Positions 3,424-41,850 of a stretch of DNA of 41,850 nt are shown in pieces. Both the position numbers and the translations under genes were made by a program. The stretch comes from an uncultured Syntrophomonadaceae bacterium (GTDB taxonomy: Bacteria; Bacillota; Dethiobacteria; DTU022): positions 1 through 41,850 of the forward strand of contig CAYFRE010000004.1 in the NCBI GenBank assembly GCA_964345455.1. Direction: 5' to 3'. The first letter of the stretch is position 1. Every line of letters starts with the position of its first letter. The notes below the pieces were generated by a model. It was not told where the DNA came from, searched no databases, and saw only the letters and a list, made by a program, of their open reading frames with translations.

Positions 3424-4115
3424 ATGATAAAGAACCCACCGAAGCGCTGCTTAAGCTATCTTTGTATTATGGATTTAACTACAGGTTTTGTAACGCCCGG
3501 GCCGGTTGGGAAAAGGGGCATGTGGAGCGTAGAAATATGATACAGCAAGGGTTACTGAGCTGAGGGTGGGCAAGTATTCCACCATATGTGTAGATACCTG
3601 CCGCTACTCGGTGCCAGATCAGTACGTGGGGGAATTTTTATTCGTTAAGATATACACTTCTTGCATCTTTTGTTACTACAAAGATCGGAAAGTAGCCGTC
3701 CATGAGCGTAAATACGGCCCGAGGAAGTGGAGCATCAAAATTACCCATTACACCAGAACTCTGAAAAGAAAGCCCGGTGCCCTTGCTGGCAGTTTAGCCC
3801 TACAGCAAGCGGAACCGGGACTTCAAAAAATTTACCGTGAACATTATAACGGAAAAGAATAATAATTCATAGAGTTGCTCGAGCTGGTGGGCGAAAAAGG
3901 TTGAGCTAAAGTAGCGGCAGCCGTGGAGGCTCTGAGAAAGGTATCCCCTACCCACTTGTCAACGAAGAAAATCGATATCTATCTGCAAGCGCAACGATGA
4001 CAATATTTTGCCGGGTAATGGAGATGACACGCTGACCATGTCCAAGGGTATTCTCGAATCTTACAGCCGGCTTCTAAACGGCAGTGTTAACAAATTCGAT
4101 CAAGGAGTCCAGGTG
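3424..4115 (+). pseudogene. istA: istA (IS21 transposase) pseudogene: N-terminal/catalytic region deleted, several frame breaks and stops
   Basis: Fragments such as ...YGFNYRFCNARAGWEKGHVER... (about 3470-3535), the 98-aa ORF 3566-3862 (CVDTCRYSVP..YVG......) and ...ELLELVGEKG*..AAVEALRKVSP... (3863-4110) resemble the C-terminal half of IstA. They lie in different frames and are interrupted by stops. A normal IstA is about 400-500 aa. Confidence 0.7.
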
Positions 4116-4117
4116 CT

Positions 4118-4885
4118 ATGATTACAAAACGGGAAATAAATGAACAGATAGAAAATTATTGCAAAGAATTGAGACTCCCGGCTATCAGGCAGAACTTTGT
4201 AGAAGATGCCCGGGAAGCAAATCAAAATAATTATGGTTATGAGGAATTCTTGTATTACCTATTGCAAAAACAAAGTGACTTAAGGCGGGAAAACGGGAAA
4301 AAGAACAGGATCCGCTTGGCCAATTTCCCCTCAAAGAAATATCTTGAAGATTTGATTGTAGAGGATTTACCGGAGGATGCCAGAAAAAAGTTAAAACTTC
4401 TTAGCTCCCTTGAATTTATTAAAACAGGGCAAAACGTTATACTGGCGGGCAATGCTGGTACCGGGAAAACCCATATTGCCACGGGCCTCGGAATCAAGGC
4501 TTGTTTGGAAGGATACAAGGTGCTTTTTACTACTGTACCTTTGTTAGTCAACCAGCTTAAAGAATCCCGCTCCGCCAAGGTCTTAAGAGCCTTCGAAAGT
4601 AAGTTTGAAAAATATGACCTGGTTATCGCTGATGAGCTGGGCTATATTTCTTTTGATAAAGAGGGTTCAGAACTTTTGTTTACCCACCTATCTTTAAAGG
4701 CTGGTCGCAAATCAACCATTATCACTACAAATTTATCTTTTGAAAGGTGGGAGGAAATATTTAAAGATCCAGTGATGACAGCCGCCATGATCGATCGGCT
4801 CACTCACAAGTCGTATATTGTGAATATGAACGGTAACTCTTATCGCTTAAAAGAAACAAAAAAATGGTTGGAGGAACAAGAATGA
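4118..4885 (+). CDS. istB: IS21-family helper ATPase IstB
   Basis: 255 aa with Walker A GNAGTGKTH and Walker B LVIADELG, plus the IstB-like C-terminus (ERW...F.D..M..A.IDRL.H). GGAG RBS upstream of ATG 4118. Confidence 0.9.
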   Translation: MITKREINEQIENYCKELRLPAIRQNFVEDAREANQNNYGYEEFLYYLLQKQSDLRRENGKKNRIRLANFPSKKYLEDLIVEDLPEDARKKLKLLSSLEFIKTGQNVILAGNAGTGKTHIATGLGIKACLEGYKVLFTTVPLLVNQLKESRSAKVLRAFESKFEKYDLVIADELGYISFDKEGSELLFTHLSLKAGRKSTIITTNLSFERWEEIFKDPVMTAAMIDRLTHKSYIVNMNGNSYRLKETKKWLEEQE

Positions 4886-5009
4886 GCATGTTTTTTTAAC
4901 TTTAAGTGGGGGAGTTTTCGATTAAAATATGGGGGATTTTTCAATTGACAAATACATCGCCGGTATAGAGCTCCCTCCTCTGAGCTTCTCCGGCAGGAGG
5001 GGGGACAAT

Positions 5010-6716
5010 CTATTCTGAGATCATTTCAAAGCAGGCGATCAGATCGCGGTTGCCTTCCACAGGAAAAGTATATATAGCCGTATCGCAGACATGCGCACCG
5101 TATTCCGTCCACCCGCTAAATCTATATCCTTCATCAGGTATGGCCTTCAAAGTAACTTCAGAGCCGTAAATATAAAAACCGCTCCCTTCTACACATCCGC
5201 CATCTCCGGCAGAAGCGGTAATTGTATATTCCCTCAACTTGAAATTTGCGCTCAAAATGCGGTCGGCGGTGACTCGAACCGCCAAGTCAGGATCTGTTCC
5301 CAGGATATCTCCATTCTCGGTCCAGTTCACAAAATCATAGTGCGTTTGCGGCCTGGCTGAAACTTTCACTTCGGTACCGTATCTATATTGGACCTCGCCG
5401 CCCCCCGTGACCTCTCCGCCCTGTTCGGGACTTACCCGGCAGGTTATTGTAAAATGGGTCCGGTAACCCGGTAGATTTTGCGCGGTAACCAGTGGCAGCG
5501 CCCTCGTTTTGGGCCAGATTGTCTTCAGGTCGCTCATATTCAAATAACCGGTTGTATATTTCCCTATCTCCACCGTGATACAGGGAATTTTTAAATTATA
5601 TACTACCCATGCGGTCAGGTGTGAAGGCGAATCCCAGGTCACCCATCGAGAAGGATAAGCCTGGTAGCCTGAATAGTTGCTCATGGCCTGGACTATTTTT
5701 TGATCCCTTTCCATTATCTTGCTGCCATGAAGAAAAAAAAAAAAATACCAAAAGAAGCGATTTCCCGTTGAATGGTAGGTGAGAATCGCTTCAAAGTTAC
5801 CCTGCCGGATTAAGCCGGCAATTGCTTTGCTCTCCGGTTCACTTTCCGGAGAAAGGCCGGGATATTCCTCGAACCAGGGTTTCCGGGGCGTCTTTGGAGC
5901 ATTTTTGTGCTTCTCCCACCCCTGGGGCCCTGCCGAGTGCTGGCGGTTGAGATCCACCCCGCGGATGTTGGCTTTCCACCGGGTAAAATTGTCACTTTTC
6001 CCGGGTTTCATGGCCAGCAACTGATCATGTTTATCCTCGGGAAAAGCAGCCAGGCCGTGCTGCGCCAGCGTTACTCCATCGGGGTTTTGCATGGGTACGA
6101 AGAGCATAGTGTATTGATCCAGCACCTCCCTGACCGGATATCCGCCCACGGTGCCGCCGCTGCCGTATGCCTGGGCATAAGTCTCTATGGTTTTTACCAA
6201 CAGCGCACTGGTGAGCCATTCCCGGGCATGACATGCACCCACAATCAAGATCCTCTGATCTCCCTTGCCCATGGAGAGAGACCACAGGTTCCGGCCCTCG
6301 ACAGAGCTGCCCACGCTGCCGAGTTTGATCAAATCCGGATATGCCCCCTTCAGCGAATGCAGCCTGGATGTCATCTGCTCATATGTATAAATTGAAGAAG
6401 CCGGCAGCGGATAAACCATGGGAACAGTCCGCCCCGGCGGAGACGATGAACCCTTTGCCCCTTTGCCTTTTTCTTCCACATCATCCCCTGCTTTCGCTTC
6501 AGCTTCAACAGGCGGACCGGCAGCAGAGGTATAGACGGCAGGAGGCCCGCCAATGCGGCGGTTATCTCCATTTCGGGAACAAGCATCGCTTTCGCCCGTA
6601 TGGAGACTGCCATCAGATGTGGGAGATTGCCCGCCGGCTCCGGGTAGGGCGGCGGCAATAAAAAATATAACGAGAAGATAGGCTGCGATCAATAAGGAAA
6701 GTTTTGAACGATCCAT
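5010..6716 (-). CDS. secreted M14-family zinc carboxypeptidase (gamma-D-glutamyl-diamino-acid peptidase-like) with C-terminal InlB-B/Listeria-Bacteroides-type repeats
   Basis: Zn ligands are present: HAREW (HxxE), YHSTG and the catalytic E in ITVEIG. The C-terminus has two repeats of the type Y.I...A...GG.V.G.G.Y..G..V...A.P..GY.F..W.E.G. Start is ATG 6716 with GGAGG at 6724-6728, followed by a signal/TM segment LSLLIAAYLLVIFFIAAA. The ORF-track start at 6749 is rejected. Confidence 0.85.
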   Translation of the reverse strand: MDRSKLSLLIAAYLLVIFFIAAALPGAGGQSPTSDGSLHTGESDACSRNGDNRRIGGPPAVYTSAAGPPVEAEAKAGDDVEEKGKGAKGSSSPPGRTVPMVYPLPASSIYTYEQMTSRLHSLKGAYPDLIKLGSVGSSVEGRNLWSLSMGKGDQRILIVGACHAREWLTSALLVKTIETYAQAYGSGGTVGGYPVREVLDQYTMLFVPMQNPDGVTLAQHGLAAFPEDKHDQLLAMKPGKSDNFTRWKANIRGVDLNRQHSAGPQGWEKHKNAPKTPRKPWFEEYPGLSPESEPESKAIAGLIRQGNFEAILTYHSTGNRFFWYFFFFLHGSKIMERDQKIVQAMSNYSGYQAYPSRWVTWDSPSHLTAWVVYNLKIPCITVEIGKYTTGYLNMSDLKTIWPKTRALPLVTAQNLPGYRTHFTITCRVSPEQGGEVTGGGEVQYRYGTEVKVSARPQTHYDFVNWTENGDILGTDPDLAVRVTADRILSANFKLREYTITASAGDGGCVEGSGFYIYGSEVTLKAIPDEGYRFSGWTEYGAHVCDTAIYTFPVEGNRDLIACFEMISE

Positions 6717-27432: not shown

Positions 27433-28524
27433 TTAGTGGTAAGAGAGGTAAACCAGGGTCACGATGATCAAGTCTCCCCTGTTAATTACACCCACTGTCA
27501 ACGATTGAAACCCGGCATCATTCAGATAAGTCTTTCCCTCGGTGATAATATGCCGGTAGAGCTCCTCAGCCGTGGGAATGGGGTAATCCCAGAATGTAAC
27601 CATATTCATTCCCGCCTTTGCCAACCGCAGTTCCGAAGCCCTTCGTTCAAGCTCCGCTCTTAGCTGATCAAGTGAATGCTCTTCACCGCGGCAGGCCTGT
27701 TCAGCGGCTGTCGCAGCGCTTTGTCGGACTGTCGTTAACAGCCTTGCTTCCCCGGCAAAAGGGGTGAGCCCGGCCTCGGCGCGCGTCTCGTTGAAGAGCG
27801 CCAGCAGCCGGGACTCATATTCCGGCAGGTAGACGGGCTTCTCCGCCGCCGCTTCCGCCCGCTGCCATTCCTTCTCGCGGGATTCTTTATAGGCCGGGTC
27901 GTTGTGCAACCGGGCCAGCTCTTCAGGCGCAGTCAGATAGAGACGCGACGGCCTCTGGACAAATTTTCCTTTTTCCTCATCGACAAAGCCTGCTCCCCAG
28001 GTTGTATCAAGGCCGTACCAGGTTTCCCCGATGCAGGCGTGATTCCAGGCATGGCGCTCCGTTCTGCCGGGAGCGGGGTGAACCTCGCCTTTTTCATAGG
28101 TTGCCTTGATCCCTGCAGCCTTTAACAGCGCTCTGGTCAAATCTGCATAATCGTGGCAGACCCCTTTTCTCTTTTCAAGAAGATATTTCGCCCCTGAACC
28201 GTAGTCCTCCATATTTTTGGCCTTCTCCACGTCGTAGGCGATGTTGGCGGTAACCCAGTCGTAAATCGCGCATAACTTTTCGTAGTCGTTCGAGGCTTCG
28301 GCAGTAATCTGCCGGGCCAAATTTTTCAGGTTGGTTGCCGGAGGCTCAACATTATTAACTTCCGCATTGCCACTCGTGACGGGGCGCATCGGTACCTTTT
28401 CCGCTTCGCCAATTCTTTCGATAAAACGGTAAATATGAGCCGTCAGCAGATCACGCTGAAAAAAAGCCGGCAGCATGGCTGCAACTAAAAAAGCGATTAA
28501 ACAGATCCAGCCAAATCGTTTCAC
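27433..28524 (-). CDS. transglutaminase-like cysteine protease-fold protein, membrane-anchored, with a possible degenerate CAP-like C-terminal domain
   Basis: N-terminal TM anchor. Transglutaminase core GVCHDYA (Cys) ... HAWN (His). The C-terminal half (ESRLLALFNETRAEAGL.PF...) is CAP/SCP-like by eye only. GTG start in a GTGA overlap with the holA stop. Confidence 0.75.
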   Translation of the reverse strand: MKRFGWICLIAFLVAAMLPAFFQRDLLTAHIYRFIERIGEAEKVPMRPVTSGNAEVNNVEPPATNLKNLARQITAEASNDYEKLCAIYDWVTANIAYDVEKAKNMEDYGSGAKYLLEKRKGVCHDYADLTRALLKAAGIKATYEKGEVHPAPGRTERHAWNHACIGETWYGLDTTWGAGFVDEEKGKFVQRPSRLYLTAPEELARLHNDPAYKESREKEWQRAEAAAEKPVYLPEYESRLLALFNETRAEAGLTPFAGEARLLTTVRQSAATAAEQACRGEEHSLDQLRAELERRASELRLAKAGMNMVTFWDYPIPTAEELYRHIITEGKTYLNDAGFQSLTVGVINRGDLIIVTLVYLSYH

Positions 28525-29612
28525 CGTTTCCTCCTCCGCCGGGGAGACAGCTGGTGGATCTGGGCGATGGCGACCTCGAGGGCCTGATGCGGGATCACCC
28601 GACCGGTCTTGATCCGGTGATCCAATTTTTGCAGAAATATAATGATCTCTTCCAAAGATTCGCGGTTGAAGGCGGCCGATTGCCCGTAAAGCTTGCGGGC
28701 TTCAAAAGGCTTTACTCCCAGTGCCCGGGGATGCTGCGCCGGGGGTACTTTCTCTTCACGCAGGGAGCGGGCGCCGAGCAACAGCCGGAAATGGCGCACC
28801 AGCATAAAAAAGATCCGCAGCGGCTCTTCACGCTTCCCGGCGAGCTGTGAGAGAACCTGCAGAGCCCGGTCGGGGTTGCCCTCGCTGAGCGCATCGGTGA
28901 GCGTGAAGACGCTGCTTTTTACGTCACCGGAGAAGAGCAACTCGACCACCTCTGCAGTGATCGTCGTCTCCCCGTCGCCCAGGTAAGCGCCATACTTGTC
29001 GAGTTCATTGGAGAGAAAGTGGAGGTCGTTTTCCCCGCTCCAGAGAAGCCGCTGCAGGGCGGCGGATTCAATTTTTTTACCTTGCCGGGCCAGCTGTTCC
29101 CGGATCCAGCGGGAAAGCTCGCCCCCTCTCAGTGGAGCGCACTCCACCACGACGCCCTTCTTTTCCAGCAGCTTGAAGAGACGCCTGCGTCGGTCAACCG
29201 CCGCCGCGCGGAAAAGGATGATCCGTGAAGGAATTTTTCCGGCCCTTTCACTCTCAACAAAGCGTTCCAGCTGCTCTGATGCCTTTTCTCCGCTCTCTTC
29301 GGGTCCTGTTTCTCCTCCTGCCGCGTCCCGCTTCTCTCTACTTTTCGGGACCAGGTAAGGGGGTTCATCCACCAGCAGCAGCTTGCGCGGCGCAAAGAGG
29401 CTTACTTCATCGAGGCGCTGCAAAGCTTCATTCAGTGTCAGTTCCGTCCCGTCAATTTTCTCCCGGCCGTAGTCTCCTTCTTCCCCCAGGTAGGCTCCGG
29501 CAAGTTGATCGGAAAGCTCCCGGATCAAAAATGGCTCGCCACCGTAAAAGAGGTAAGCGGGAACAAGTTTCCTCGAAGCAATCATCTGCGCGGCTTCCCG
29601 GTAGCCGATCAT
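28521..29612 (-). CDS. holA: DNA polymerase III subunit delta
   Basis: N-terminal ...L.P.YLFYG.E.FL and the three-domain delta layout. The conserved position is divergent from rpsT, as in Bacillus. Confidence 0.88.
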   Translation of the reverse strand: MIGYREAAQMIASRKLVPAYLFYGGEPFLIRELSDQLAGAYLGEEGDYGREKIDGTELTLNEALQRLDEVSLFAPRKLLLVDEPPYLVPKSREKRDAAGGETGPEESGEKASEQLERFVESERAGKIPSRIILFRAAAVDRRRRLFKLLEKKGVVVECAPLRGGELSRWIREQLARQGKKIESAALQRLLWSGENDLHFLSNELDKYGAYLGDGETTITAEVVELLFSGDVKSSVFTLTDALSEGNPDRALQVLSQLAGKREEPLRIFFMLVRHFRLLLGARSLREEKVPPAQHPRALGVKPFEARKLYGQSAAFNRESLEEIIIFLQKLDHRIKTGRVIPHQALEVAIAQIHQLSPRRRRKR

Positions 29613-29617
29613 CTAAT

Positions 29618-31090
29618 TTATGTCCCCCTGACACTGTTTCTGAAAAGACGGCGCGACTCGGGTAAAAAGAGAACCAGCACCGTGTAAATTTCCAGGCGCC
29701 CCATGATCATCATCAGGCTCAAAAGCGCCTTCCCGGCAGCGGGAACAGCCTGATGGGTAAAGCTCGGTCCGACAAGGCCGAGGCCGGGACCGATATTACC
29801 CAGGGCCGAGGCAGCGGCCGAAGCGGCGGTGGTAAAATCGAGATCCATCCAGCTCAGGGCCAGGGTGGTGAGCACAAAGAATAAAATATAGAGAAAGGTG
29901 AACCCGGCCACGCCCCGCAGTGTCTCTTCGGAAACAGCCTGATCGTCAAGCTTGACCGTGGCCACGGCAGAGGGATGGATCAGGCGCAACAGTTCCCGCC
30001 GCGCATGTTTAAGCAGCAGCAGCAGTCGAGTCTGCTTGATCCCCCCGCCGGTTGAACCGCCACAGGCTCCGAGAAACATCAGGAAGAAAAGCAGAACCCG
30101 TGAAAAATGGGGCCAGGCATCAAAGTCGGCGCTGGCGTAACCGGTGGTCGTGGTAATCGAAACCACCTGGAAGGCGCTCTGCCGAATTGAAAGAAGGATA
30201 TCCGAGCCGGAAACGGGAGCAATGTTTACTGCCATCAGCACGGTGGCAACAGCCAGCGCCACAACATAAAAGCGCAGCTCTTCACTCTTCAGCACACCCC
30301 GGTCTCTACGCAGCAGGCGGTAATAAAGGGTAAAGTTTACTCCGGCCAGGAACATAAAAATAAAGATCACCACTTCGGCCGCCGGGTTATGCAGGGCGGC
30401 GACGCTGGCGCTGTAGGTGGAGAAACCACCGGTAGGCATGGTGGTAAGGGCATGGGCCAGGGCATCATAGAGGGTCAAACCGCACAGCATCAATAGCAGG
30501 GTTTGCAAAACTGTAAACGCCGCATAGATCAGCCAGAGCCAGCGCGCCGTTTCGACAACCCGAGGGACAAAACGTTCGGCAACCGGGCCGGGCAACTCCG
30601 CCCTGTAGAGAGTCGTACTTTTGAAACCGAAGCGCGGCAGAACGGCGAGAAAGAGAACGATGATCCCCATACCCCCCAGCCACTGGGTGAGGGAGCGCCA
30701 GAAAAGAAGGCCGCGGGGCAGGCTCTCCACATCGGCAATCACCGTCGCCCCGGTGGTGGTAAATCCGGAGACCGCTTCAAAAAAGGCATCAAGGAGAGTA
30801 CCCCCGAAGCCGTCGTAAAAATAGAAGGGGAGCCCGCCAAAAAAACCGGCCAGCAGCCAGGCCAGCGATACCAGGGAGAAGCTTTCAGCCAGGGAAAGTT
30901 TTTCCCGGCGCGACGGATAGGCGACGGCGCATAAAAAAGCCCCTGCACCGGCAGTAGCCAGGATGGCTCGTAAAAAGGCAGACCGGTCTCCCCCCTGCTC
31001 CCCGATCGACCAGAGAGCCGCCAGCGCCATCATGACCGACAAAAATATCATCATGATTCCCAAAAGATAAAAAATCCTGATGCGACGCAC
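29618..31090 (-). CDS. trkH: Trk/Ktr-type potassium uptake protein, membrane subunit TrkH
   Basis: About 10 TM segments with repeated selectivity-filter-like motifs (SGFTTTGAT, TMPTGGFST, TTTGYAS, SALGNIGPG). GTG start after GGGAGAGG. Confidence 0.9.
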   Translation of the reverse strand: MRRIRIFYLLGIMMIFLSVMMALAALWSIGEQGGDRSAFLRAILATAGAGAFLCAVAYPSRREKLSLAESFSLVSLAWLLAGFFGGLPFYFYDGFGGTLLDAFFEAVSGFTTTGATVIADVESLPRGLLFWRSLTQWLGGMGIIVLFLAVLPRFGFKSTTLYRAELPGPVAERFVPRVVETARWLWLIYAAFTVLQTLLLMLCGLTLYDALAHALTTMPTGGFSTYSASVAALHNPAAEVVIFIFMFLAGVNFTLYYRLLRRDRGVLKSEELRFYVVALAVATVLMAVNIAPVSGSDILLSIRQSAFQVVSITTTTGYASADFDAWPHFSRVLLFFLMFLGACGGSTGGGIKQTRLLLLLKHARRELLRLIHPSAVATVKLDDQAVSEETLRGVAGFTFLYILFFVLTTLALSWMDLDFTTAASAAASALGNIGPGLGLVGPSFTHQAVPAAGKALLSLMMIMGRLEIYTVLVLFLPESRRLFRNSVRGT

Positions 31091-31152
31091 AGAATCATCC
31101 TCTCCCGGTTGGCTCGCCGGATACCGGCGGCATTTCTTTTCAAGCCGTGTTT

Positions 31153-32544
31153 CTACTTGATATTACCGGATGGGTGATGATTCACCCGGTTTTCCCTGGC
31201 CGCAGCAAAATAACGTTCCAGCTGCCCGCTTATTTCAGGCAGGGTGAAGATAATCAAATGGTCTCCCGGTAGAAGTTCGGTTTGCCCTCCGGGGATGATC
31301 ACCTCTTGCCGGCGAATAATCGAACCGACCAGCATTCCCCGGGGGAAATTTGCCTCGGCCAATTTTTTGTGGGCCACCCGCGCTGTTTCAGGGAGGACCA
31401 GCTCCAGAATCTCGGCCCGTTCATCGTTCAAAATGGATAGAGAGACCAGGTCCTCGCGGTGGGTAAAACGGAGGATCTGCGCCGCCGTGATCAAACGCGG
31501 GTTGATGATGCTCTCCAGGCCGAGGGCTCTGTATACCGGGGTAAACTGCGGATCAACCACTTCGCAGATGATCTTTTTTATCCCCGACTGCTTCGCCAGC
31601 ACCCCGGCGATGATGTTGGTGCGATCGTCCCCGCTGACCGCGACAACGGCATCGGTCTGCTCAATCTCTTCCATCTTGAAAAAGTCGAGATCTGCGGCAT
31701 CCCCCTGCAATACCAGGGTATGCGAAAGTTCGCGGCTGAGCTGCTCGCAGCGCGCGGTATCTTTTTCAACCAGTTTCACCTTAAAGGGGCTGTGGCTCTC
31801 CTCCAGCAGCTTTGCCAGTTGGTAGCCGATCATTCCGCCGCCGAGAATGGTGACATGGTTGATCCTGGTGCGCTCGTGCAGCAGCAACCGGCTGATATCC
31901 TTGAGCGTGCGCGACCGGCCCAACAGGTAAATTTTCGCACCCGGTTTAACCATATCTTTACCGCCGGGGATGATAAATTTATCCTGTCCCTCGCTGATCC
32001 CGACAATGATACAGCCCGGCGGTAGATTTAACTGGTGGAAAGGTTTTTTCACAATATCGGTTTCGGGACCGGCGACCAGGCTGAGCATCATCACCCGTCC
32101 CTTGCTGAAATACTCTATCTCGCAGGCCTCGGGGAAATGGAGCATGCGGGAGATCTCGTAAGCCGCGCTGCGCTCCGGGCTGATCGTCAGGTCAATCCCC
32201 AGTTGCTGCGGGTCAAGCACGGAAGAATCAAGAGCATAGTCGGCGTTGCGCACCCGGGCCACGGTCACGGGAACACCGTAGCGTTTGGCCAGCATACAGG
32301 CGATGATGTTGATCTCGTCGGTCCCGGTTACCGCAATAAACATAGCCGCGGACTTGACTTCCGCTTTTTCCAGGGCCGGGGCATTGGCCCCGTTTTCTTC
32401 AAGAACCATTACATCGTACATGTCCCTTAATTTACGCGCCTGCTCCGGGTTTTTTTCAATGATGACGACATCAAAATTTTTTTCGGAAAGATTTCGGGCC
32501 AGCTCCGAGCCGACCCCGCCGCCGCCGATAATGATCATGTACAC
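31153..32544 (-). CDS. trkA: Trk system potassium uptake protein TrkA (tandem RCK: 2x TrkA-N/TrkA-C)
   Basis: Two Rossmann motifs (IIGGGGVGS and ILGGGMIGY), each followed by a TrkA-C domain. Sits directly upstream of trkH. Confidence 0.9.
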   Translation of the reverse strand: MYMIIIGGGGVGSELARNLSEKNFDVVIIEKNPEQARKLRDMYDVMVLEENGANAPALEKAEVKSAAMFIAVTGTDEINIIACMLAKRYGVPVTVARVRNADYALDSSVLDPQQLGIDLTISPERSAAYEISRMLHFPEACEIEYFSKGRVMMLSLVAGPETDIVKKPFHQLNLPPGCIIVGISEGQDKFIIPGGKDMVKPGAKIYLLGRSRTLKDISRLLLHERTRINHVTILGGGMIGYQLAKLLEESHSPFKVKLVEKDTARCEQLSRELSHTLVLQGDAADLDFFKMEEIEQTDAVVAVSGDDRTNIIAGVLAKQSGIKKIICEVVDPQFTPVYRALGLESIINPRLITAAQILRFTHREDLVSLSILNDERAEILELVLPETARVAHKKLAEANFPRGMLVGSIIRRQEVIIPGGQTELLPGDHLIIFTLPEISGQLERYFAAARENRVNHHPSGNIK

Positions 32545-32661
32545 TTAACAATCACCCTTCCCCACGGCAATGATATCTCGATATTATCATAAATAATCAA
32601 GTAGGGAACATTATTTTTCATGCAGAAGAAAAATATTTTTCGAGGTTGGATAAAGCGGCGC

Positions 32662-39215: not shown

Positions 39216-39728
39216 GTGGCCGATCCACAGACAATTTATTTAAACCGCGGCGAGTCCCTGCCGCAGTGCTACGGCGAAGACCGCCTGGTGATTTTGCCCC
39301 GGGATCCCTACAATATTTTTGCTTACTGGGAAATAAGCTTGCCGGCCAGGGAGGCCCTGGAAAAGAGAGTGGGGGTGGAACAGTGGCCGGAGGTCACTTT
39401 TACGCTACGGGTATATAAACATGCCTGGGCCGAAGAAAAAACAGTAGAAAACTATTTTGACCTGGAAGTAGACCGGGAAAGTAATAACTGGTATATTCCG
39501 GTCCCGGACGCGGACCGGTTTTACCATGTCGAACTGGGCTGGAAACTGCCGGAGAGCTCTTTCCAATCGATCCTTCGTTCAAACCTAATCCGCACCCCGC
39601 GTGACGGCCTCAGCGACCTGATCGATGAAAACTGGCAGCTCCCCGACTGGAAAGCGCGAAAGCTTTTCCGCCGGATCTCCATGCACCATCTCAGCTCAGC
39701 GGAATTTTTAAGACGCCGCAAGAAATAA
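39216..39728 (+). CDS. DUF4912 domain protein (conserved partner of GH57 branching enzymes, function unknown)
   Basis: GTG start after AGGAGG. The motifs LP..YGEDR.V.LPRDP...FAYWE and W.IPV.DADR.Y.VELG match my recollection of DUF4912. Sits immediately upstream of the GH57 branching enzyme. Confidence 0.7.
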   Translation: MADPQTIYLNRGESLPQCYGEDRLVILPRDPYNIFAYWEISLPAREALEKRVGVEQWPEVTFTLRVYKHAWAEEKTVENYFDLEVDRESNNWYIPVPDADRFYHVELGWKLPESSFQSILRSNLIRTPRDGLSDLIDENWQLPDWKARKLFRRISMHHLSSAEFLRRRKK

Positions 39729-39785: not shown

Positions 39786-41417
39786 ATGGCTCAAGGTTTT
39801 CTTGCAATAATTTTACACGCGCACCTGCCCTATGTCCGCCACCCGGAATACGATCATTCCCTCGAAGAAAAATGGTTTTTCGAAGCGATCACCGAATGCT
39901 ACATCCCCCTGCTGATGGTTTTTGAAGGATTGCGCGATGAGGGAATTGACTTCCGGCTGACCTTTTCTCTGTCACCAACTTTGCTGGCGATGTTGGAAGA
40001 CCCTCTGCTGCAGAAGCGCTACCGGCAATACCTGCAGGGTCTGCAAAATCTGGCCCGGCTCGAAGAAGAACGAACCGCCGGTGATGTCTCTTTTGCTCCC
40101 CTGGCCCGGCTCTACCGCTCCCATTTTGACTCTGCCGCAGCCTACTTTGACCGCTACGGCAGCCGCCTGGTCGGCGCATTCCGCAAGCTGGCCGAAGAAA
40201 ACTACCTGGAGCTGATTACCACCGCCTCCACGCATGCCTACCTGCCGCTGCTGCAGCTTCAACCGGAGAGCATTTATGCACAGATCGCCAATGGAGTCCA
40301 GTATCATACGGCGCTTTTCGGAGAGGCTCCGCGAGGGATATGGCTGCCCGAATGTGCCTTTGAACATGGCCTGGAAGATTTCATCGGGGAGCTGGGGATA
40401 CAATACTTTATTACCGCCACGCACGGGGTGCTCTACGCCTCACCCCGCCCAAAATACGGAATCTACAGCCCTATCCTGACCAAAAGCGGCACAGCCGTCT
40501 TCGGAAGGGACGCGGAAACATCCAAGCAGGTCTGGAGCGCGCAGGAAGGCTACCCCGGGGATTACGACTACCGCGAATTCTACCGGGATATCGCCTATGA
40601 CCTGCCGCTTGACTATATCGGTCCACACCTCCACCCGCCGGGCATGCGCAGCGACACCGGCATAAAATATTACCGCATCACCTGCGAAGGGCTGGAATAC
40701 AATGAGCCCTACCGGCCGGAGCGTGCCCGGGAAAAAGCCGCCCTGCATGCCGGAAACTTCATGTTTAACCGCGAGCAGCAGGTCCGGTACCTGTCCGCGG
40801 TGATGGGCCGCCCCCCCATAATCATCTCCCCCTATGACGCCGAGTTGTTTGGTCACTGGTGGTTCGAGGGGCCGCAATGGCTCGATTTTCTCTGCCGGAA
40901 AATCGCTTTTGACCAGCCGCATTTAAAACTGATCACCCCCGGGGAATACCTTGACCTCGGTTACCCGCTGCAGCTGGCTGCTCCCAACCCTTCCAGCTGG
41001 GGTGACAAGGGATATCACGAAGTCTGGTTAAACGGAAGCAACGACTGGCTTTACCGGCACCTGCACAAAGCCGCCGCTGATATGATCGAGCTGGCCACTG
41101 CATATCCCGAACCTGAAGGGCTGCAAAGCAGGGCCCTTCGCCAGGCCGCCCGCGAACTGATGCTGGCCCAAAGCAGCGACTGGCCCTTTATCATAACCTC
41201 GGGAACCATGGTCGAATATGCCCGCAGCAGGGCAGAAAACCACCTGGTTCGCTTCAGGAGCCTGCTGCGCCAGATAAACGAGGGGTCCATCGATGCCGGA
41301 TGGCTTAAAGCATTGGAAGAAGCGGACAATGTCTTCCCGCACCTTGATTACCGCTTATACCAAAATTTCGAAACAACCGTGCCGCATATCTTGGAGGAGT
41401 CGTTTAATCCAGTCTAA
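39786..41417 (+). CDS. GH57-family 1,4-alpha-glucan branching enzyme (DUF1957 type, Thermus/Thermococcus-like)
   Basis: LHAHLPYVRHPE (region I), GIWLPECAF (nucleophile Glu), SPYDAELFGHWWFEGP (acid/base Asp), and a C-terminal helical DUF1957-like domain. Confidence 0.9.
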   Translation: MAQGFLAIILHAHLPYVRHPEYDHSLEEKWFFEAITECYIPLLMVFEGLRDEGIDFRLTFSLSPTLLAMLEDPLLQKRYRQYLQGLQNLARLEEERTAGDVSFAPLARLYRSHFDSAAAYFDRYGSRLVGAFRKLAEENYLELITTASTHAYLPLLQLQPESIYAQIANGVQYHTALFGEAPRGIWLPECAFEHGLEDFIGELGIQYFITATHGVLYASPRPKYGIYSPILTKSGTAVFGRDAETSKQVWSAQEGYPGDYDYREFYRDIAYDLPLDYIGPHLHPPGMRSDTGIKYYRITCEGLEYNEPYRPERAREKAALHAGNFMFNREQQVRYLSAVMGRPPIIISPYDAELFGHWWFEGPQWLDFLCRKIAFDQPHLKLITPGEYLDLGYPLQLAAPNPSSWGDKGYHEVWLNGSNDWLYRHLHKAAADMIELATAYPEPEGLQSRALRQAARELMLAQSSDWPFIITSGTMVEYARSRAENHLVRFRSLLRQINEGSIDAGWLKALEEADNVFPHLDYRLYQNFETTVPHILEESFNPV

Positions 41418-41438: not shown

Positions 41439-41471
41439 AAAAAAAGGGTACAAAATTTGAATTTTGTACCC
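41439..41471 (-). terminator. strong rho-independent terminator (minus strand); the hairpin could also stop the convergent branching-enzyme transcript
   Basis: On the minus strand, GGGTACAAAATT-ca-AATTTTGTACCC (41471-41446) is followed by TTTTTTT (41445-41439). It lies 29 nt past the + strand GH57 stop. Confidence 0.75.
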
Positions 41472-41526
41472 AACGGTGAAGGAACCAAGCCGGGGTTAAG
41501 CTGGCTTGATATCTTTTTCAAGTATT

Positions 41527-41554
41527 AAAAAAAGAGACAGCTTACGGCTGCCTC
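41527..41554 (-). terminator. riboswitch expression-platform terminator
   Basis: On the minus strand, GAGGCAGC-cgtaa-GCTGTCTC (one G-U pair) is followed by TTTTTTT (41533-41527). Confidence 0.75.
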
Positions 41555-41580
41555 ATCAGGGAGAAATAAATATATCAGTT

Positions 41581-41662
41581 CCTGACCGGCAGCCTGGCAA
41601 TCCTTTACAGGACCCATAGCTTTGCGTCACTGCCTTGCGGCAGTTTTGCCCTTGACGGTTAA
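41581..41662 (-). promoter_or_regulatory. c-di-GMP-I (GEMM) riboswitch aptamer
   Basis: The minus-strand RNA is ACCGUCAAGGGCAAAACUGCC-GCAA-GGCAGUGACGCAAAGCUAUGGGUCC-UGUAAA-GGAUUGCCAGGCUGCCGGUCAGG. It has the GGCAAA element, a GNRA-capped hairpin, the near-invariant GACGCAAAGC, a second hairpin, and an AGG.UGCCGGU 3' segment. In these it parallels the V. cholerae Vc2 aptamer as I recall it. Confidence 0.7.
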
Positions 41663-41674
41663 AGCTCTATAAAG

Positions 41675-41703
41675 ATTATATAATGTTTATGAATAATTTA
41701 CAA
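41675..41703 (-). promoter_or_regulatory. sigma-A promoter driving the riboswitch RNA
   Basis: On the minus strand: TTGTAA (41703-41698), exactly 17 nt of spacer, then consensus TATAAT (41680-41675). The predicted TSS is near 41668, a few nt before the aptamer. Confidence 0.6.
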
Positions 41704-41761: not shown

Positions 41762-41850
41762 CTATTCACCGCCGACCGGGTAAAATTCAGCCAGCTCCGA
41801 GAGGGTGCCGTTGATTTCATCGACATATTTCACCAGCGGGTGTGGCGGTT
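41762..41850 (-). CDS. possible 3' end of an unidentified gene entering from the right edge
   Basis: This is the only open frame at the edge. It reads ..PPHPLVKYVDEINGTLSELAEFYPVGGE* with TAG at 41764-41762. It is too short to assign. Confidence 0.3.
   Translation of the reverse strand, partial: PPHPLVKYVDEINGTLSELAEFYPVGGE

What the first reader, a model, noticed from the sequence alone, without database searches (positions are those of the whole stretch)
41439..41703. Orphan c-di-GMP riboswitch unit with tandem terminators, converging on the glycogen branching-enzyme gene
The minus strand carries a complete, self-contained unit:
- a near-consensus promoter, TTGTAA-17-TATAAT;
- a GEMM-I-like aptamer (GGGCAAAA.CUGCC-GCAA-GGCAG.GACGCAAAGC...);
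- a candidate antiterminator, in which GGCUGCC..UCAGG of the aptamer 3' side pairs with CCUGA..GGCAGCC;
- an intrinsic terminator, GAGGCAGC/GCUGUCUC plus U7, whose 5' arm is the strand captured by the antiterminator.

This arrangement predicts a c-di-GMP OFF switch. There is no RBS or plausible ORF downstream. Only about 55 nt follow before a second, stronger terminator (12-bp stem plus U7), and after that comes the antisense 3' end of the GH57 branching-enzyme gene.

The element is therefore not a conventional 5' leader. Three readings are possible: a ligand-gated small RNA or c-di-GMP sponge; a regulator of antisense transcription into the glycogen locus, which would link c-di-GMP to glycogen storage; or a relic of a lost gene. 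Riboswitch-controlled non-coding or antisense RNAs are known for B12 and SAM elements, but this architecture next to a glycogen locus is not something I can place.
Basis: partly seen in the sequence, partly recalled or inferred. Interest (0 to 1): 0.72.

Follow-up and report, generated by a model that had tools for sequence, protein, structure and literature searches.

The report
Orphaned but conserved c-di-GMP riboswitch RNA
This is a real c-di-GMP-sensing RNA switch that sits directly in front of potassium-transport genes in related bacteria; here a glycogen gene cluster separates it from them, yet it stays intact with no gene to control, so it probably now acts as a small signal-gated RNA.

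Summary
Window 41703-41439 (minus strand) carries a near-consensus promoter, a GEMM-I/c-di-GMP-I aptamer (Rfam 67.5 bits, E 5e-14, the only Rfam hit in the window), a terminator T1 with a competing antiterminator, a second terminator T2, and no conserved ORF.

The best model is the "GGC" variant (RF03167), but the pocket bases are the canonical G/A/C. The predicted ligand is therefore c-di-GMP, and the switch is predicted to be OFF.

New context:
- The same unit lies convergent with the GH57 branching-enzyme gene in 11 of 16 informative related species.
- It is under purifying selection: aptamer 79-93% and platform 85-97% identical, against 44-66% at four-fold sites.
- In soda-lake relatives the same promoter, P1 and platform sit 20-45 nt upstream of trkA-trkH-holA.
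- In this window those genes lie 9 kb downstream on the same strand, behind the glycogen cluster.

So this is a displaced operon leader kept as a free-standing non-coding RNA gene, not a dead relic.

T2 stops read-through before the branching-enzyme ORF, so deep antisense control is unlikely here. The unit's output is unknown; no local target was found. Precedents exist: orphan and antisense-RNA-linked c-di-GMP-I riboswitches in C. difficile, and EutX/Rli55. I file it as a new member of a known kind, of moderate interest.

The parts
41675..41703 (-). Sigma-70-type promoter TTGTAA-17-TATAAT; predicted transcription start near 41668
   Evidence: 10 of 12 matches. A TTGxxx-17-TAtAAT promoter sits at the same distance from the aptamer in the ten relatives whose contig reaches it (sequences; L010's contig ends just upstream of the aptamer).
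41584..41659 (-). c-di-GMP-I (GEMM-I, type 2) aptamer. P1 is ACCG/CGGU. P2 carries a GCAA tetraloop. P3 is present. Pocket bases are G (41650), A (41623) and C (41589).
   Evidence: Rfam RF03167 67.5 bits, E 5e-14. 98.9% of cells are paired and 4 pairs show compensatory changes across 12 species. The pocket columns are invariant.
41567..41583 (-). Variable linker. Its 5' part, UCAGG (41585-41581), is one arm of the antiterminator.
   Evidence: Linker identity to relatives is 17-65%. The UCAGG:CCUGA helix is pairable in 82% of cells.
41527..41566 (-). Conserved expression platform UUUCUCCCUGAUGAGGCAGC-CGUAA-GCUGUCUC-U7. It holds the antiterminator 3' arm (41560-41546) and terminator T1 (stem 41554-41534, U7 41533-41527).
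   Evidence: It is 85-97% identical across species. The same sequence occurs in 52 metagenome leaders.
41472..41526 (-). T1-T2 spacer, present only in the read-through isoform. It contains the motif CUUAACCCCGGCUUGGUUCCUUCAC (about 41501-41476).
   Evidence: The motif is shared by L111, L004, L013, L005 and L011, with traces in L014, L007 and L116. It is replaced in other relatives. It is not a repeat within the window.
41439..41471 (-). Terminator T2: GGGUACAAAAU-UCAA-AUUUUGUACCC plus U7. It is unidirectional for the minus strand and ends 22 nt before the BE stop codon.
   Evidence: A hairpin with its U-tract on this strand is present in about 8 of 13 distinct BE-linked loci.
41486..41508 (+). 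Weak terminator-like hairpin on the + strand (CAAGCCGGGGUUAAGCUGGCUUG plus AUAUCUUUUU). It is a possible 3' end of the BE mRNA and overlaps the spacer.
   Evidence: It is not conserved as a hairpin in L005 or L011.
39786..41417 (+). GH57 1,4-alpha-glucan branching-enzyme gene, convergent with the unit
   Evidence: Pfam PF03065 + PF09210.
41762..41850 (-). 3' end of the upstream DUF3108 gene (stop codon 41764-41762), cut by the window edge
   Evidence: The identical longer contig L001 shows DUF3108 and ABC-transporter genes upstream.
28521..32544 (-). trkA (31153-32544), trkH (29618-31090) and holA (28521-29612). This is the operon that the homologous leader directly precedes in relatives. Here it lies 9 kb downstream, and trkA has its own short upstream region.
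   Evidence: Pfam TrkA_N/TrkA_C, TrkH and DNA_pol3_delta. Synteny. No leader was found in 32545-32661.

Best explanation
The unit is a free-standing, independently transcribed non-coding RNA gene. Its 5' two-thirds are a canonical c-di-GMP-I riboswitch.

Shown:
- It has its own promoter, a GEMM-I aptamer with the c-di-GMP pocket bases, and a terminator T1.
- The 5' arm of T1 is captured by the aptamer's 3' strand when the aptamer is not folded.
- A second, constitutive terminator T2 stands just before the branching-enzyme stop codon.
- No ORF follows.

Shown by comparison:
- It is the leader of the trkA-trkH-holA operon in related lineages.
- In this clade the glycogen cluster (BE, DUF4912, glgA, GalT-like and two GH57 genes) lies between leader and operon.
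- The unit is nevertheless held under purifying selection.

Inferred mechanism:
- With c-di-GMP bound, the aptamer holds GGCUGCC..UCAGG, T1 forms, and a roughly 140-nt RNA is released with UUUUCUCCCUGAU unpaired.
- Without c-di-GMP, the antiterminator forms and sequesters that stretch. Transcription then runs about 85 nt further to T2, giving a roughly 230-nt isoform that carries the spacer motif.

Inferred output: the RNA itself. It would be a c-di-GMP-gated small RNA with two isoforms, acting in trans on an RNA or protein partner, in the manner of EutX/Rli55 or SreA. It is probably not a protein-coding message, and in this genome probably not deep antisense transcription of the branching-enzyme gene. 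The partner is not identified.
For: - The aptamer is real: 67.5 bits; compensatory pairs in P1 and P2; pocket G/A/C invariant.
- The switch logic holds. The antiterminator is in the minimum-free-energy fold of 10 of 12 orthologues. Aptamer plus T1 is only 1-5.5 kcal/mol less stable in 11 of them. The 7-bp antiterminator core is pairable in 100% of cells.
- It is autonomous. The promoter is conserved in position in the relatives that reach it. The gene upstream of the unit varies between relatives.
- Selection acts on it. Aptamer identity is 79-93% and platform identity 85-97%. Four-fold sites of the adjacent gene are 44-66% identical, the linker 17-65%, and the spacer alignment has 40% mean column identity.
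- Its origin is a displaced leader.
- T2 carries its U-tract on the unit's own strand.
- Two observations argue for a function independent of BE orientation. L018 keeps the promoter, a P1 stub and the platform, without the aptamer and on the opposite strand. L116 carries the unit between toxin-antitoxin cassettes.
- Precedents for riboswitch-gated non-coding RNAs exist: PMC7602753, PMC8237595, PMC11477304, bioRxiv 10.1101/803072.
Against: - No target was found. Duplex energies of the conserved stretch with the translation-initiation regions of all local genes are at background, here and in relatives.
- The T1-T2 spacer is conserved only within a sub-clade.
- Four of 16 informative relatives (L006, L016, L030, L032) have no unit at this site, so it is dispensable or mobile.
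- Part of the platform's conservation follows simply from having to pair with the invariant aptamer strand.
- There are no transcript data.
- Conserved c-di-GMP riboswitches that do not respond in vivo are documented (Bc1, PMC11218506).
Confidence: 0.45

Rival explanations
1. The unit is a cis-antisense, convergent regulator of the branching-enzyme operon. At low c-di-GMP, read-through past T1 produces RNA complementary to the BE mRNA 3' UTR. Where T2 is absent, it is complementary to the BE coding region. The result would be duplex-dependent processing or transcriptional interference, so c-di-GMP would raise BE expression.
For: - The unit is convergent with BE and 1-135 nt from its stop codon in every BE-linked locus: 11 genome and 15 metagenome loci.
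- The gene on the unit's other side varies.
- In L017 T1 abuts the BE stop codon, and L012 has no T2.
- A weak + strand terminator at 41486-41508 would make the BE 3' UTR overlap the read-through isoform.
- c-di-GMP riboswitches are the class most enriched in antisense orientation (PMC9943018).
Against: - T2 is a strong terminator on the unit's own strand. It stops transcription 22 nt before the BE ORF here and in most relatives.
- The + strand terminator is not conserved.
- L018 has the unit on the same strand as BE.
- The linkage to BE can be explained by inheritance of the order leader, glycogen cluster, trkA.
Confidence: 0.25
2. The unit is a dormant leftover: a former trkA leader stranded by the glycogen cluster, still transcribed but without a function.
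For: - Relatives carry the same leader directly upstream of trkA, a Na+/H+ exchanger gene or holA.
- Here trkA has its own upstream region.
- Four relatives have lost the unit.
- L018 has lost the aptamer.
- Bc1 shows that a conserved c-di-GMP riboswitch can be unresponsive (PMC11218506).
Against: - The promoter, pocket bases, helices (with compensatory changes) and platform are conserved across at least 11 species. Neutral sites in the same species are 44-66% identical, and the flanking intergenic DNA cannot be aligned.
- A back-stop terminator, T2, has been added or kept in most lineages.
Confidence: 0.1
3. The unit is a c-di-GMP sponge or buffer. An abundantly transcribed high-affinity aptamer RNA would titrate the second messenger, and T1 would simply end the RNA.
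For: - The promoter is near-consensus.
- The strictly conserved pocket implies that ligand binding matters.
- There is no ORF.
Against: - A sponge needs neither a ligand-responsive antiterminator nor a second terminator, yet both are conserved.
- The platform is more conserved than the aptamer.
- No precedent was found in the papers read.
Confidence: 0.07
4. The unit is still a long-range leader. Read-through past T1 and T2 would cross BE and DUF4912 in antisense and feed the co-oriented glgA-GalT-GH57-GH57-trkA-trkH-holA genes.
For: All of those genes lie on the unit's strand, downstream of it.
Against: - Two terminators and 2.2 kb of untranslated antisense RNA intervene.
- The glgA/DUF4912 divergent region and the trkA upstream region leave room for their own promoters.
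Confidence: 0.03

Closest known systems
c-di-GMP-I (GEMM-I) riboswitch, Rfam RF01051, clan CL00126
   Same: - It has the three-helix architecture and a GNRA (GCAA) tetraloop in P2.
- It has the conserved GGCAAA...GACGCAAAGC...GCUGCC core with the G/A/C pocket bases.
- It has an intrinsic-terminator expression platform, the usual form in Bacillota.
   Different: - No gene lies downstream.
- It scores higher on the variant model RF03167.
- It lacks the tetraloop receptor (type 2).
- The platform sequence is more conserved than the aptamer.
c-di-GMP-I-GGC variant, Rfam RF03167
   Same: It is the best-scoring model here (67.5 bits) and in all 11 related genome loci (60-72 bits). The trkA-linked relative L122 also matches it.
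   Different: The model consensus has G after GACGC (GACGCGAAgC). Here, and in all 12 orthologues, that base is A, as in RF01051. From my own knowledge, 'GGC' names the bases at pocket positions 20/47/92 of the Vc2 structure.
Orphan and antisense-RNA-linked c-di-GMP-I riboswitches of Clostridioides difficile (orphan between CD2517 and CD2517.1; those upstream of RCd11 and RCd12)
   Same: These are c-di-GMP-I riboswitches with no protein-coding gene downstream, or that gate a non-coding or antisense RNA (PMC11477304).
   Different: - The organisms and neighbouring genes differ.
- Those antisense RNAs are type I antitoxins; no toxin ORF is seen here.
- Here the origin as a displaced operon leader can be traced.
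EutX (E. faecalis) and Rli55 (L. monocytogenes): B12-riboswitch-gated small RNAs
   Same: The layout is the same: promoter, riboswitch, ligand-dependent terminator, extra RNA segment, second terminator, no ORF. Ligand gives a short form and its absence a long form (PMC7602753, PMC8237595).
   Different: - The ligand is c-di-GMP, not AdoCbl.
- No ANTAR-type dual hairpin or other recognised platform is in the extension.
- The extension is conserved only within a sub-clade.
Antisense-acting riboswitches (SAM/ubiG-mccBA in C. acetobutylicum; B12/AspocR-pocR in Listeria)
   Same: The riboswitch with its own promoter lies at the 3' end of a convergent gene, and a ligand-dependent terminator decides whether antisense RNA is made (PMC9943018).
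   Different: A second terminator stops read-through before the target ORF in this genome.
Bc1 c-di-GMP-I riboswitch of the Bacillus cereus group
   Same: It is a c-di-GMP-I riboswitch with two tandem intrinsic terminators (PMC11218506).
   Different: - Bc1 precedes genes, and its terminators are 28 bp apart within one platform.
- Here T2 is 55 nt away, is not part of the switch, and no gene follows.

Membership tests
c-di-GMP-I / GEMM-I riboswitch (clan CL00126) | Covariance-model score at or above the curated threshold | tested here: met
   RF03167 scores 67.5 bits against a gathering score of 59, E 5.4e-14. A second clan model also passed its own threshold. The near-identical aptamer of L116 scores 61.5 bits on RF01051, gathering score 35.
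c-di-GMP-I / GEMM-I riboswitch (clan CL00126) | P1, P2 and P3 helices supported by comparative data | tested here: met
   98.9% of cells are paired in 12 species, against 25-48% when partners are slid. Compensatory changes occur in P1 (1 pair) and P2 (3 pairs). P3 varies on one side only.
c-di-GMP-I / GEMM-I riboswitch (clan CL00126) | Ligand-contacting bases G20, A47 and C92 (Vc2 numbering; the mapping is from my own knowledge of the published structures) | tested here: met
   G (41650), A (41623) and C (41589) are invariant columns in alignment A1. The consensus lines of RF01051 and RF03167 agree with this placement.
c-di-GMP-I / GEMM-I riboswitch (clan CL00126) | Binds c-di-GMP and changes termination | not testable with these tools
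   Only thermodynamic prediction is available: antiterminator -51.6 against aptamer plus T1 -46.1 kcal/mol. The same ordering holds in 10 of 12 orthologues.
c-di-GMP-I / GEMM-I riboswitch (clan CL00126) | Located in the 5' leader of a regulated gene | tested here: not met
   No ORF with an SD sequence, and no conserved ORF, follows the unit. The next features are T2 and a convergent gene. Homologous leaders in relatives do precede trkA, a Na+/H+ exchanger gene or holA.
c-di-GMP-I-GGC variant (RF03167) | G at the position after GACGC (pocket position 47) | tested here: not met
   The base is A in the window and in all 11 related genome loci. The model consensus is GACGCGAAgC. I therefore do not file the aptamer as the variant, despite the best score.
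Riboswitch-gated small RNA (EutX/Rli55 type) | Own promoter, riboswitch with ligand-dependent terminator, no ORF, second terminator | tested here: met
Riboswitch-gated small RNA (EutX/Rli55 type) | Read-through extension carries a conserved binding platform for a protein or RNA partner | tested here: inconclusive
   The motif CUUACCCCGGCUUGRUUCCUUCAY is conserved in about 6-8 loci, replaced in others and absent in L017. It gives no Rfam hit. No partner is identified.
Antisense-acting riboswitch | Lies at the 3' end of the target gene on the opposite strand, with conserved linkage | tested here: met
   This holds in 11 of 16 informative genome loci and in 15 metagenome loci.
Antisense-acting riboswitch | Read-through transcript overlaps the target gene | tested here: inconclusive
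   T2 is predicted to stop transcription at 41439, 22 nt short of the BE stop codon. Overlap is possible only with an undetermined BE 3' UTR. It is direct in L017 and L012, which lack T2.
Hammerhead ribozyme type II | Covariance-model score and catalytic core | tested here: not met
   The score is 18.6 bits against a gathering score of 37, E 0.4. CUGAUGA is followed by a hairpin but no GAAA follows. L009 and L014 have CUGGUGA.

The most novel reading that the evidence does not exclude
The orphaned leader has been taken over as a c-di-GMP-gated trans-acting RNA. Its conserved 3' module, UUUUCUCCCUGAUGAGG plus hairpin, would be the effector. Ligand binding would both terminate the RNA and expose the module.

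More broadly, this promoter-P1-platform cassette may be a constant output device. On it, GEMM-I-derived sensor domains have diversified. In soda-lake relatives the helices are kept by compensatory changes while the pocket bases differ from leader to leader. That would point to new ligand specificities controlling K+ transport operons.
Probability: 0.25. Interest if true: 0.7.

Novelty: new member of a known kind. Interest (0 to 1): 0.5.

Why it matters
If the RNA is functional, it would be a traceable case of a cis-acting riboswitch leader surviving separation from its operon and acquiring, or revealing, a role as a stand-alone RNA gated by a second messenger. That would extend c-di-GMP signalling output to small RNAs in an uncultured clade of anaerobic-digester Bacillota.

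It also marks a family in which the expression platform is more conserved than the sensor, the reverse of the usual pattern for riboswitches. The sensor variants of that family, upstream of trkA, are candidates for altered ligand specificity.

[quoted passage not shown] The adjacency to the branching-enzyme gene is most simply explained by gene order.

Tried and rejected
- **Hammerhead ribozyme.** The invariant CUGAUGAG gave only a sub-threshold Hammerhead_II hit. There is no GAAA after the hairpin, and two orthologues have CUGGUGAG.
- **Small ORF in the T1-T2 spacer.** The 35-codon TTG ORF has no SD sequence. Relatives differ by indels that are not multiples of three.
- **Tiny ORF AUG-AGG-CAG-CCG-UAA inside T1.** It has no SD sequence, and the stop codon is not conserved (CAA in most relatives).
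- **Trans targets in cis-linked genes.** I computed RNAduplex energies of the platform stretch and of the spacer motif against 780 candidate start regions of the window. The best true start was holA at -18.5 kcal/mol. That pairing is not conserved in 18 relatives (-9 to -15, within background). No glycogen or trk gene stands out in 16 loci.
- **Exact or near-exact complement of the platform elsewhere in the window.** 10 matches with up to 3 mismatches, against 4.7 +/- 2 expected; none lies at a real start site.
- **T2 as a repeated REP-like element.** It is unique in the window.
- **T2 as the terminator of the BE gene.** Its U-tract is on the wrong strand.
- **Recent inversion of DUF4912-BE as the origin.** The divergent arrangement of DUF4912-BE against glgA/GalT/GH57 is found in loci down to about 60% BE identity, so it is old.
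- **c-di-GMP turnover genes near the unit.** None were found among the 27 ORFs scanned with Pfam, which are housekeeping genes, one IS21 IstB gene and a few ORFs with no Pfam match.
- **What 'GGC' means.** The paper defining the variant is not in the library, so that point rests on my own knowledge plus the two model consensus lines.
Full report
**1. What is in the sequence**

Read on the minus strand, 41703-41439 contains the following:
- a TTGTAA-17-TATAAT promoter;
- a 76-nt stretch matching the Rfam c-di-GMP-I-GGC model;
- a variable linker;
- the sequence UUUCUCCCUGAUGAGGCAGC-CGUAA-GCUGUCUC-U7, which is terminator T1;
- 55 nt of spacer;
- a second hairpin, GGGUACAAAAU/AUUUUGUACCC plus U7, which is terminator T2.

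The Rfam match scores 67.5 bits against a gathering score of 59, E 5.4e-14. It is the only gathering-level hit in the 41,850-base window, and one further model of the same clan also passed its own threshold.

The region holds 3 promoter-like sites against 1.2 +/- 1.1 in shuffles, and 4 terminator-like sites against 1.4 +/- 1.1.

The GH57 branching-enzyme (BE) gene ends at 41417 on the + strand (Pfam Glyco_hydro_57 and BE_C). The window edge cuts a minus-strand DUF3108 gene whose stop codon is at 41764-41762. An identical, longer public contig (L001) shows that gene and an ABC transporter upstream.

No credible ORF follows T1. The 35-codon TTG ORF across the spacer has no SD sequence and is broken by frame-shifting indels in relatives. 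The only corrections are that the T2 stem has 11 pairs, not 12, and the point about the variant model below.

**2. Which ligand**

The best-scoring model is the "GGC" variant. Its consensus reads GACGCGAAgC, whereas the canonical c-di-GMP-I consensus reads GACGCAAAgC. The window and all 11 related genome loci have A at that position.

The other two pocket positions are also invariant. They are the unpaired G before the GC of P2, and the C in UGCCG.

From my own knowledge of the Vc2 structures, these three positions are G20, A47 and C92, and "GGC" names the bases at those positions. On that reading the aptamer is a canonical c-di-GMP binder. It is of the type without a tetraloop receptor (GCAA or GUAA loop) and simply resembles the seed sequences of the variant model. 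The almost identical aptamer of L116 is in fact assigned to RF01051, at 61.5 bits against a gathering score of 35.

**3. The switch**

ViennaRNA places the antiterminator in the minimum-free-energy structure of the 142-nt leader, at -51.6 kcal/mol. The antiterminator is GGCUGCC:GGCAGCC plus UCAGG:CCUGA. Forcing the aptamer gives aptamer plus T1 at -46.1 kcal/mol.

Across the 12 orthologues:
- The antiterminator is in the minimum-free-energy fold of 10.
- The aptamer-plus-T1 state is 1.2-5.5 kcal/mol less stable in 11. L012 gives 12.2, probably because its row is shifted in the alignment.
- The 7-bp antiterminator core is pairable in every sequence, but it never varies, so there is no covariation evidence. 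The second helix is pairable in 82% of cells, partly in other registers.

This is the ordinary logic of an OFF switch. Ligand gives T1 and an RNA of about 140 nt. No ligand gives read-through to T2 and an RNA of about 230 nt. These steps are predicted, not shown.

**4. Conservation**

I fetched 80 loci from species-representative genomes using the BE protein. They are Bacillota MAGs labelled Dethiobacteria or "Syntrophomonadaceae", mostly from anaerobic digesters.

Rfam found the aptamer in 11 of the first 20 loci. It was always on the strand opposite to BE and just past its stop codon. A covariance model of aptamer plus T1 (R1) found no others among the 80, apart from a partial copy in L018.

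Sixteen loci have BE at 70% identity or more and enough downstream sequence to judge:

| Outcome | Count | Loci |
|---|---|---|
| Full unit | 11 | L004, L005, L007-L014, L017 |
| Platform only | 1 | L018 |
| Nothing (BE is followed by an unrelated + strand gene) | 4 | L006, L016, L030, L032 |

Identity to the window, by segment:

| Segment | Identity |
|---|---|
| Aptamer | 79-93% |
| Platform | 85-97% |
| Linker | 17-65% |
| Four-fold degenerate sites of BE | 44-66% |
| Spacer alignment (mean column identity) | 40% |

P1 and P2 show compensatory changes. A TTGxxx-17-TAtAAT promoter is present at the same place in every relative whose contig reaches it. A non-functional remnant would not look like this.

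**5. Where the unit came from**

I scanned metagenome contigs with the platform sequence and obtained 52 loci.
- Fifteen are further BE-linked copies.
- One, L116, lies between two toxin-antitoxin cassettes.
- The other 36 come mainly from soda-lake and saline sediments. They share a promoter (GGTGTTGTCA-N17-TATAAT), the P1 helix GACCG/CGGUC, the linker AGGAAUAAAUUUG and an identical platform.

In those 36 loci the platform is followed as below:

| Gene following the platform | Loci | Distance or note |
|---|---|---|
| 468-aa TrkA, then TrkH and HolA | 22 | start codon 14-46 nt after the platform, behind a GAAAGGnAGG ribosome-binding site |
| Na+/H+ exchanger gene, then trkA paralogue, trkA, trkH, holA | 4-5 | |
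| holA directly | 6 | |

The remaining three or four contigs end just past the platform.

The window itself carries trkA (31153-32544), trkH (29618-31090) and holA (28521-29612) on the unit's strand, 9 kb downstream. In between lie BE and DUF4912 on the opposite strand, then glgA, a GalT-like gene and two GH57 genes on the same strand. The same order is seen in L091, L098, L099 and L100.

The trkA upstream region here (32545-32661) has no leader. The unit is therefore the leader of the trkA-trkH-holA operon, separated from it by the glycogen cluster. I cannot say whether the cluster was inserted in this clade or lost in the others.

The ORF is displaced rather than deleted, and the unit is maintained rather than decaying.

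**6. What it does now**

Deep antisense transcription of BE is unlikely in this genome. T2 has its U-tract on the unit's strand and ends 22 nt before the BE stop codon. A comparable hairpin with a U-tract on that strand is present in about 8 of 13 distinct BE-linked loci. L012 and L017 have none, and in L017 T1 abuts the stop codon.

Overlap with the BE 3' UTR is possible if the BE mRNA ends at the weak + strand hairpin at 41486-41508. That hairpin is not conserved.

Three observations point to a role that does not depend on orientation relative to BE:
- The platform is the most conserved part of the unit, and UUUUCUCCC is not explained by the antiterminator.
- L018 keeps a perfect TTGACA-17-TATAAT promoter, a P1 stub (AACCG-UUUUUGUUG-CGGUU) and the platform, on the same strand as BE, with no ORF after it.
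- L116 carries the unit away from BE, at least within the 1.7 kb that is held.

The spacer motif CUUACCCCGGCUUGRUUCCUUCAY, just before T2, is shared by a sub-clade only.

I therefore favour a c-di-GMP-gated non-coding RNA with a short and a long isoform. Ligand binding would expose the conserved stretch, and the antiterminator would hide it. I could not find a partner: duplex energies with all local start regions are at background, here and in relatives. This part is inference, and I give it less than even odds.

**7. Comparison with what is known**

- Orphan c-di-GMP-I riboswitches, and c-di-GMP-I riboswitches in front of antisense RNAs, are listed for C. difficile (PMC11477304).
- c-di-GMP riboswitches are the family most enriched in antisense orientation: 152 cases, P 4.6e-62 (PMC9943018).
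- The B12-gated small RNAs EutX and Rli55 have the same two-terminator, no-ORF layout (PMC7602753, PMC8237595).
- Terminated riboswitch leaders that act in trans have been reported (bioRxiv 10.1101/803072).
- A c-di-GMP-I riboswitch with two terminators, unresponsive in vivo, is described for Bacillus thuringiensis (PMC11218506).
[quoted passage not shown] Nothing here requires such a link.

**8. Side finding**

In the soda-lake leaders the sensor domain between the P1 strands is very variable. A few are canonical: L090, L119 and L122, with L122 at 61.4 bits on RF03167. L126 scores 47.9 bits, below the threshold. Of the 16 loci scanned, mostly diverged leaders, 12 gave no c-di-GMP-family hit at E 0.1 or better.

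When 16 of these leaders are aligned to model R1:
- The GEMM-I helices are kept, with 92% of cells paired against 32-56% when partners are slid.
- Sixteen pairs show changes on both sides. The alignment was fitted to the model, which favours this result.
- The pocket positions differ from one leader to the next.

This looks like diversification of the sensor on a constant platform rather than decay, but I did not test it further.

**9. Verdict**

The unit is a bona fide c-di-GMP-I riboswitch with an OFF terminator. It is an orphaned but selectively maintained operon leader and most likely acts as a ligand-gated non-coding RNA.

The glycogen connection is probably positional. I file it as a new member of a known kind, of moderate interest.

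Noticed in passing
L083-L134 (metagenome loci), e.g. L095:4259-4408, L113:586-729, L127:1245-1392, L129:104-245: This is a family of leaders upstream of trkA-trkH-holA, a Na+/H+ exchanger gene or holA. Promoter, P1, linker and terminator platform are identical across them. The GEMM-I-like sensor domain keeps its helices by compensatory changes but varies at the ligand-pocket positions. Most have no Rfam hit. They may be new specificity variants linked to K+ homeostasis.
   Followed up: partly
L018:5690-5790 (+): The unit has lost the aptamer; only a P1 stub, AACCG-UUUUUGUUG-CGGUU, remains. It is inverted onto the same strand as the BE gene. It keeps a perfect TTGACA-17-TATAAT promoter and the conserved platform with its terminator. 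No ORF follows it.
   Followed up: partly
L116:741-883 (-) and flanks: A canonical copy of the unit (RF01051, 61.5 bits) sits between two vapBC-like toxin-antitoxin cassettes rather than next to the BE gene. Its downstream spacer shows traces of the window's spacer motif (GCUUAAACCCCC, CUUCACC, UUUUUUCAG).
   Followed up: partly
window 41486-41508 (+): A terminator-like hairpin on the + strand lies inside the T1-T2 spacer. It could be the 3' end of the BE mRNA, in which case the BE 3' UTR would overlap the read-through isoform. It is not conserved in L005 or L011.
   Followed up: partly
window 41527-41566 (-): UUUUCUCCC, upstream of the antiterminator arm, is nearly invariant across species. 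The switch model does not need it, and no partner for it was found.
   Followed up: partly
window 32545-32661 (-): The trkA upstream region in this genome is a short AT-rich stretch with no riboswitch-like leader. It contains a possible extended -10 element (TGATAATAT) and a GGGGAAGGG ribosome-binding site. So trkA appears to have lost the c-di-GMP-type leader control seen in relatives.
   Followed up: partly
L009:4671-4790 and upstream of its unit; also L098, L100, L131, L014: Copies of a palindromic repeat of about 30 nt (TGCAACAGGAAGGTACGTCCCCAATGTTGCA and variants) flank the unit and take the place of T2. They look like REP-type intergenic repeats.
   Followed up: no
window 4118-4885 (+): An IstB-like IS21 helper ATPase gene lies in a region of lower G+C (0.45 for 4001-6000, against about 0.56 elsewhere). 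This suggests an insertion sequence.
   Followed up: no
window 39216-39728 (+) and all 80 BE loci: A DUF4912 gene precedes the GH57 branching-enzyme gene in almost every locus, down to about 55% BE identity. It is usually divergent from glgA, GalT-like or GH57 genes. This is a very stable gene pair of unknown joint function.
   Followed up: no
L095:5973-6051 (+), L103:2642-2720 (-): There are sub-threshold matches to the isrK Hfq-binding RNA model (about 30 bits, gathering score 50) near the trkA/trkH junction. They are probably terminator-driven chance hits.
   Followed up: no
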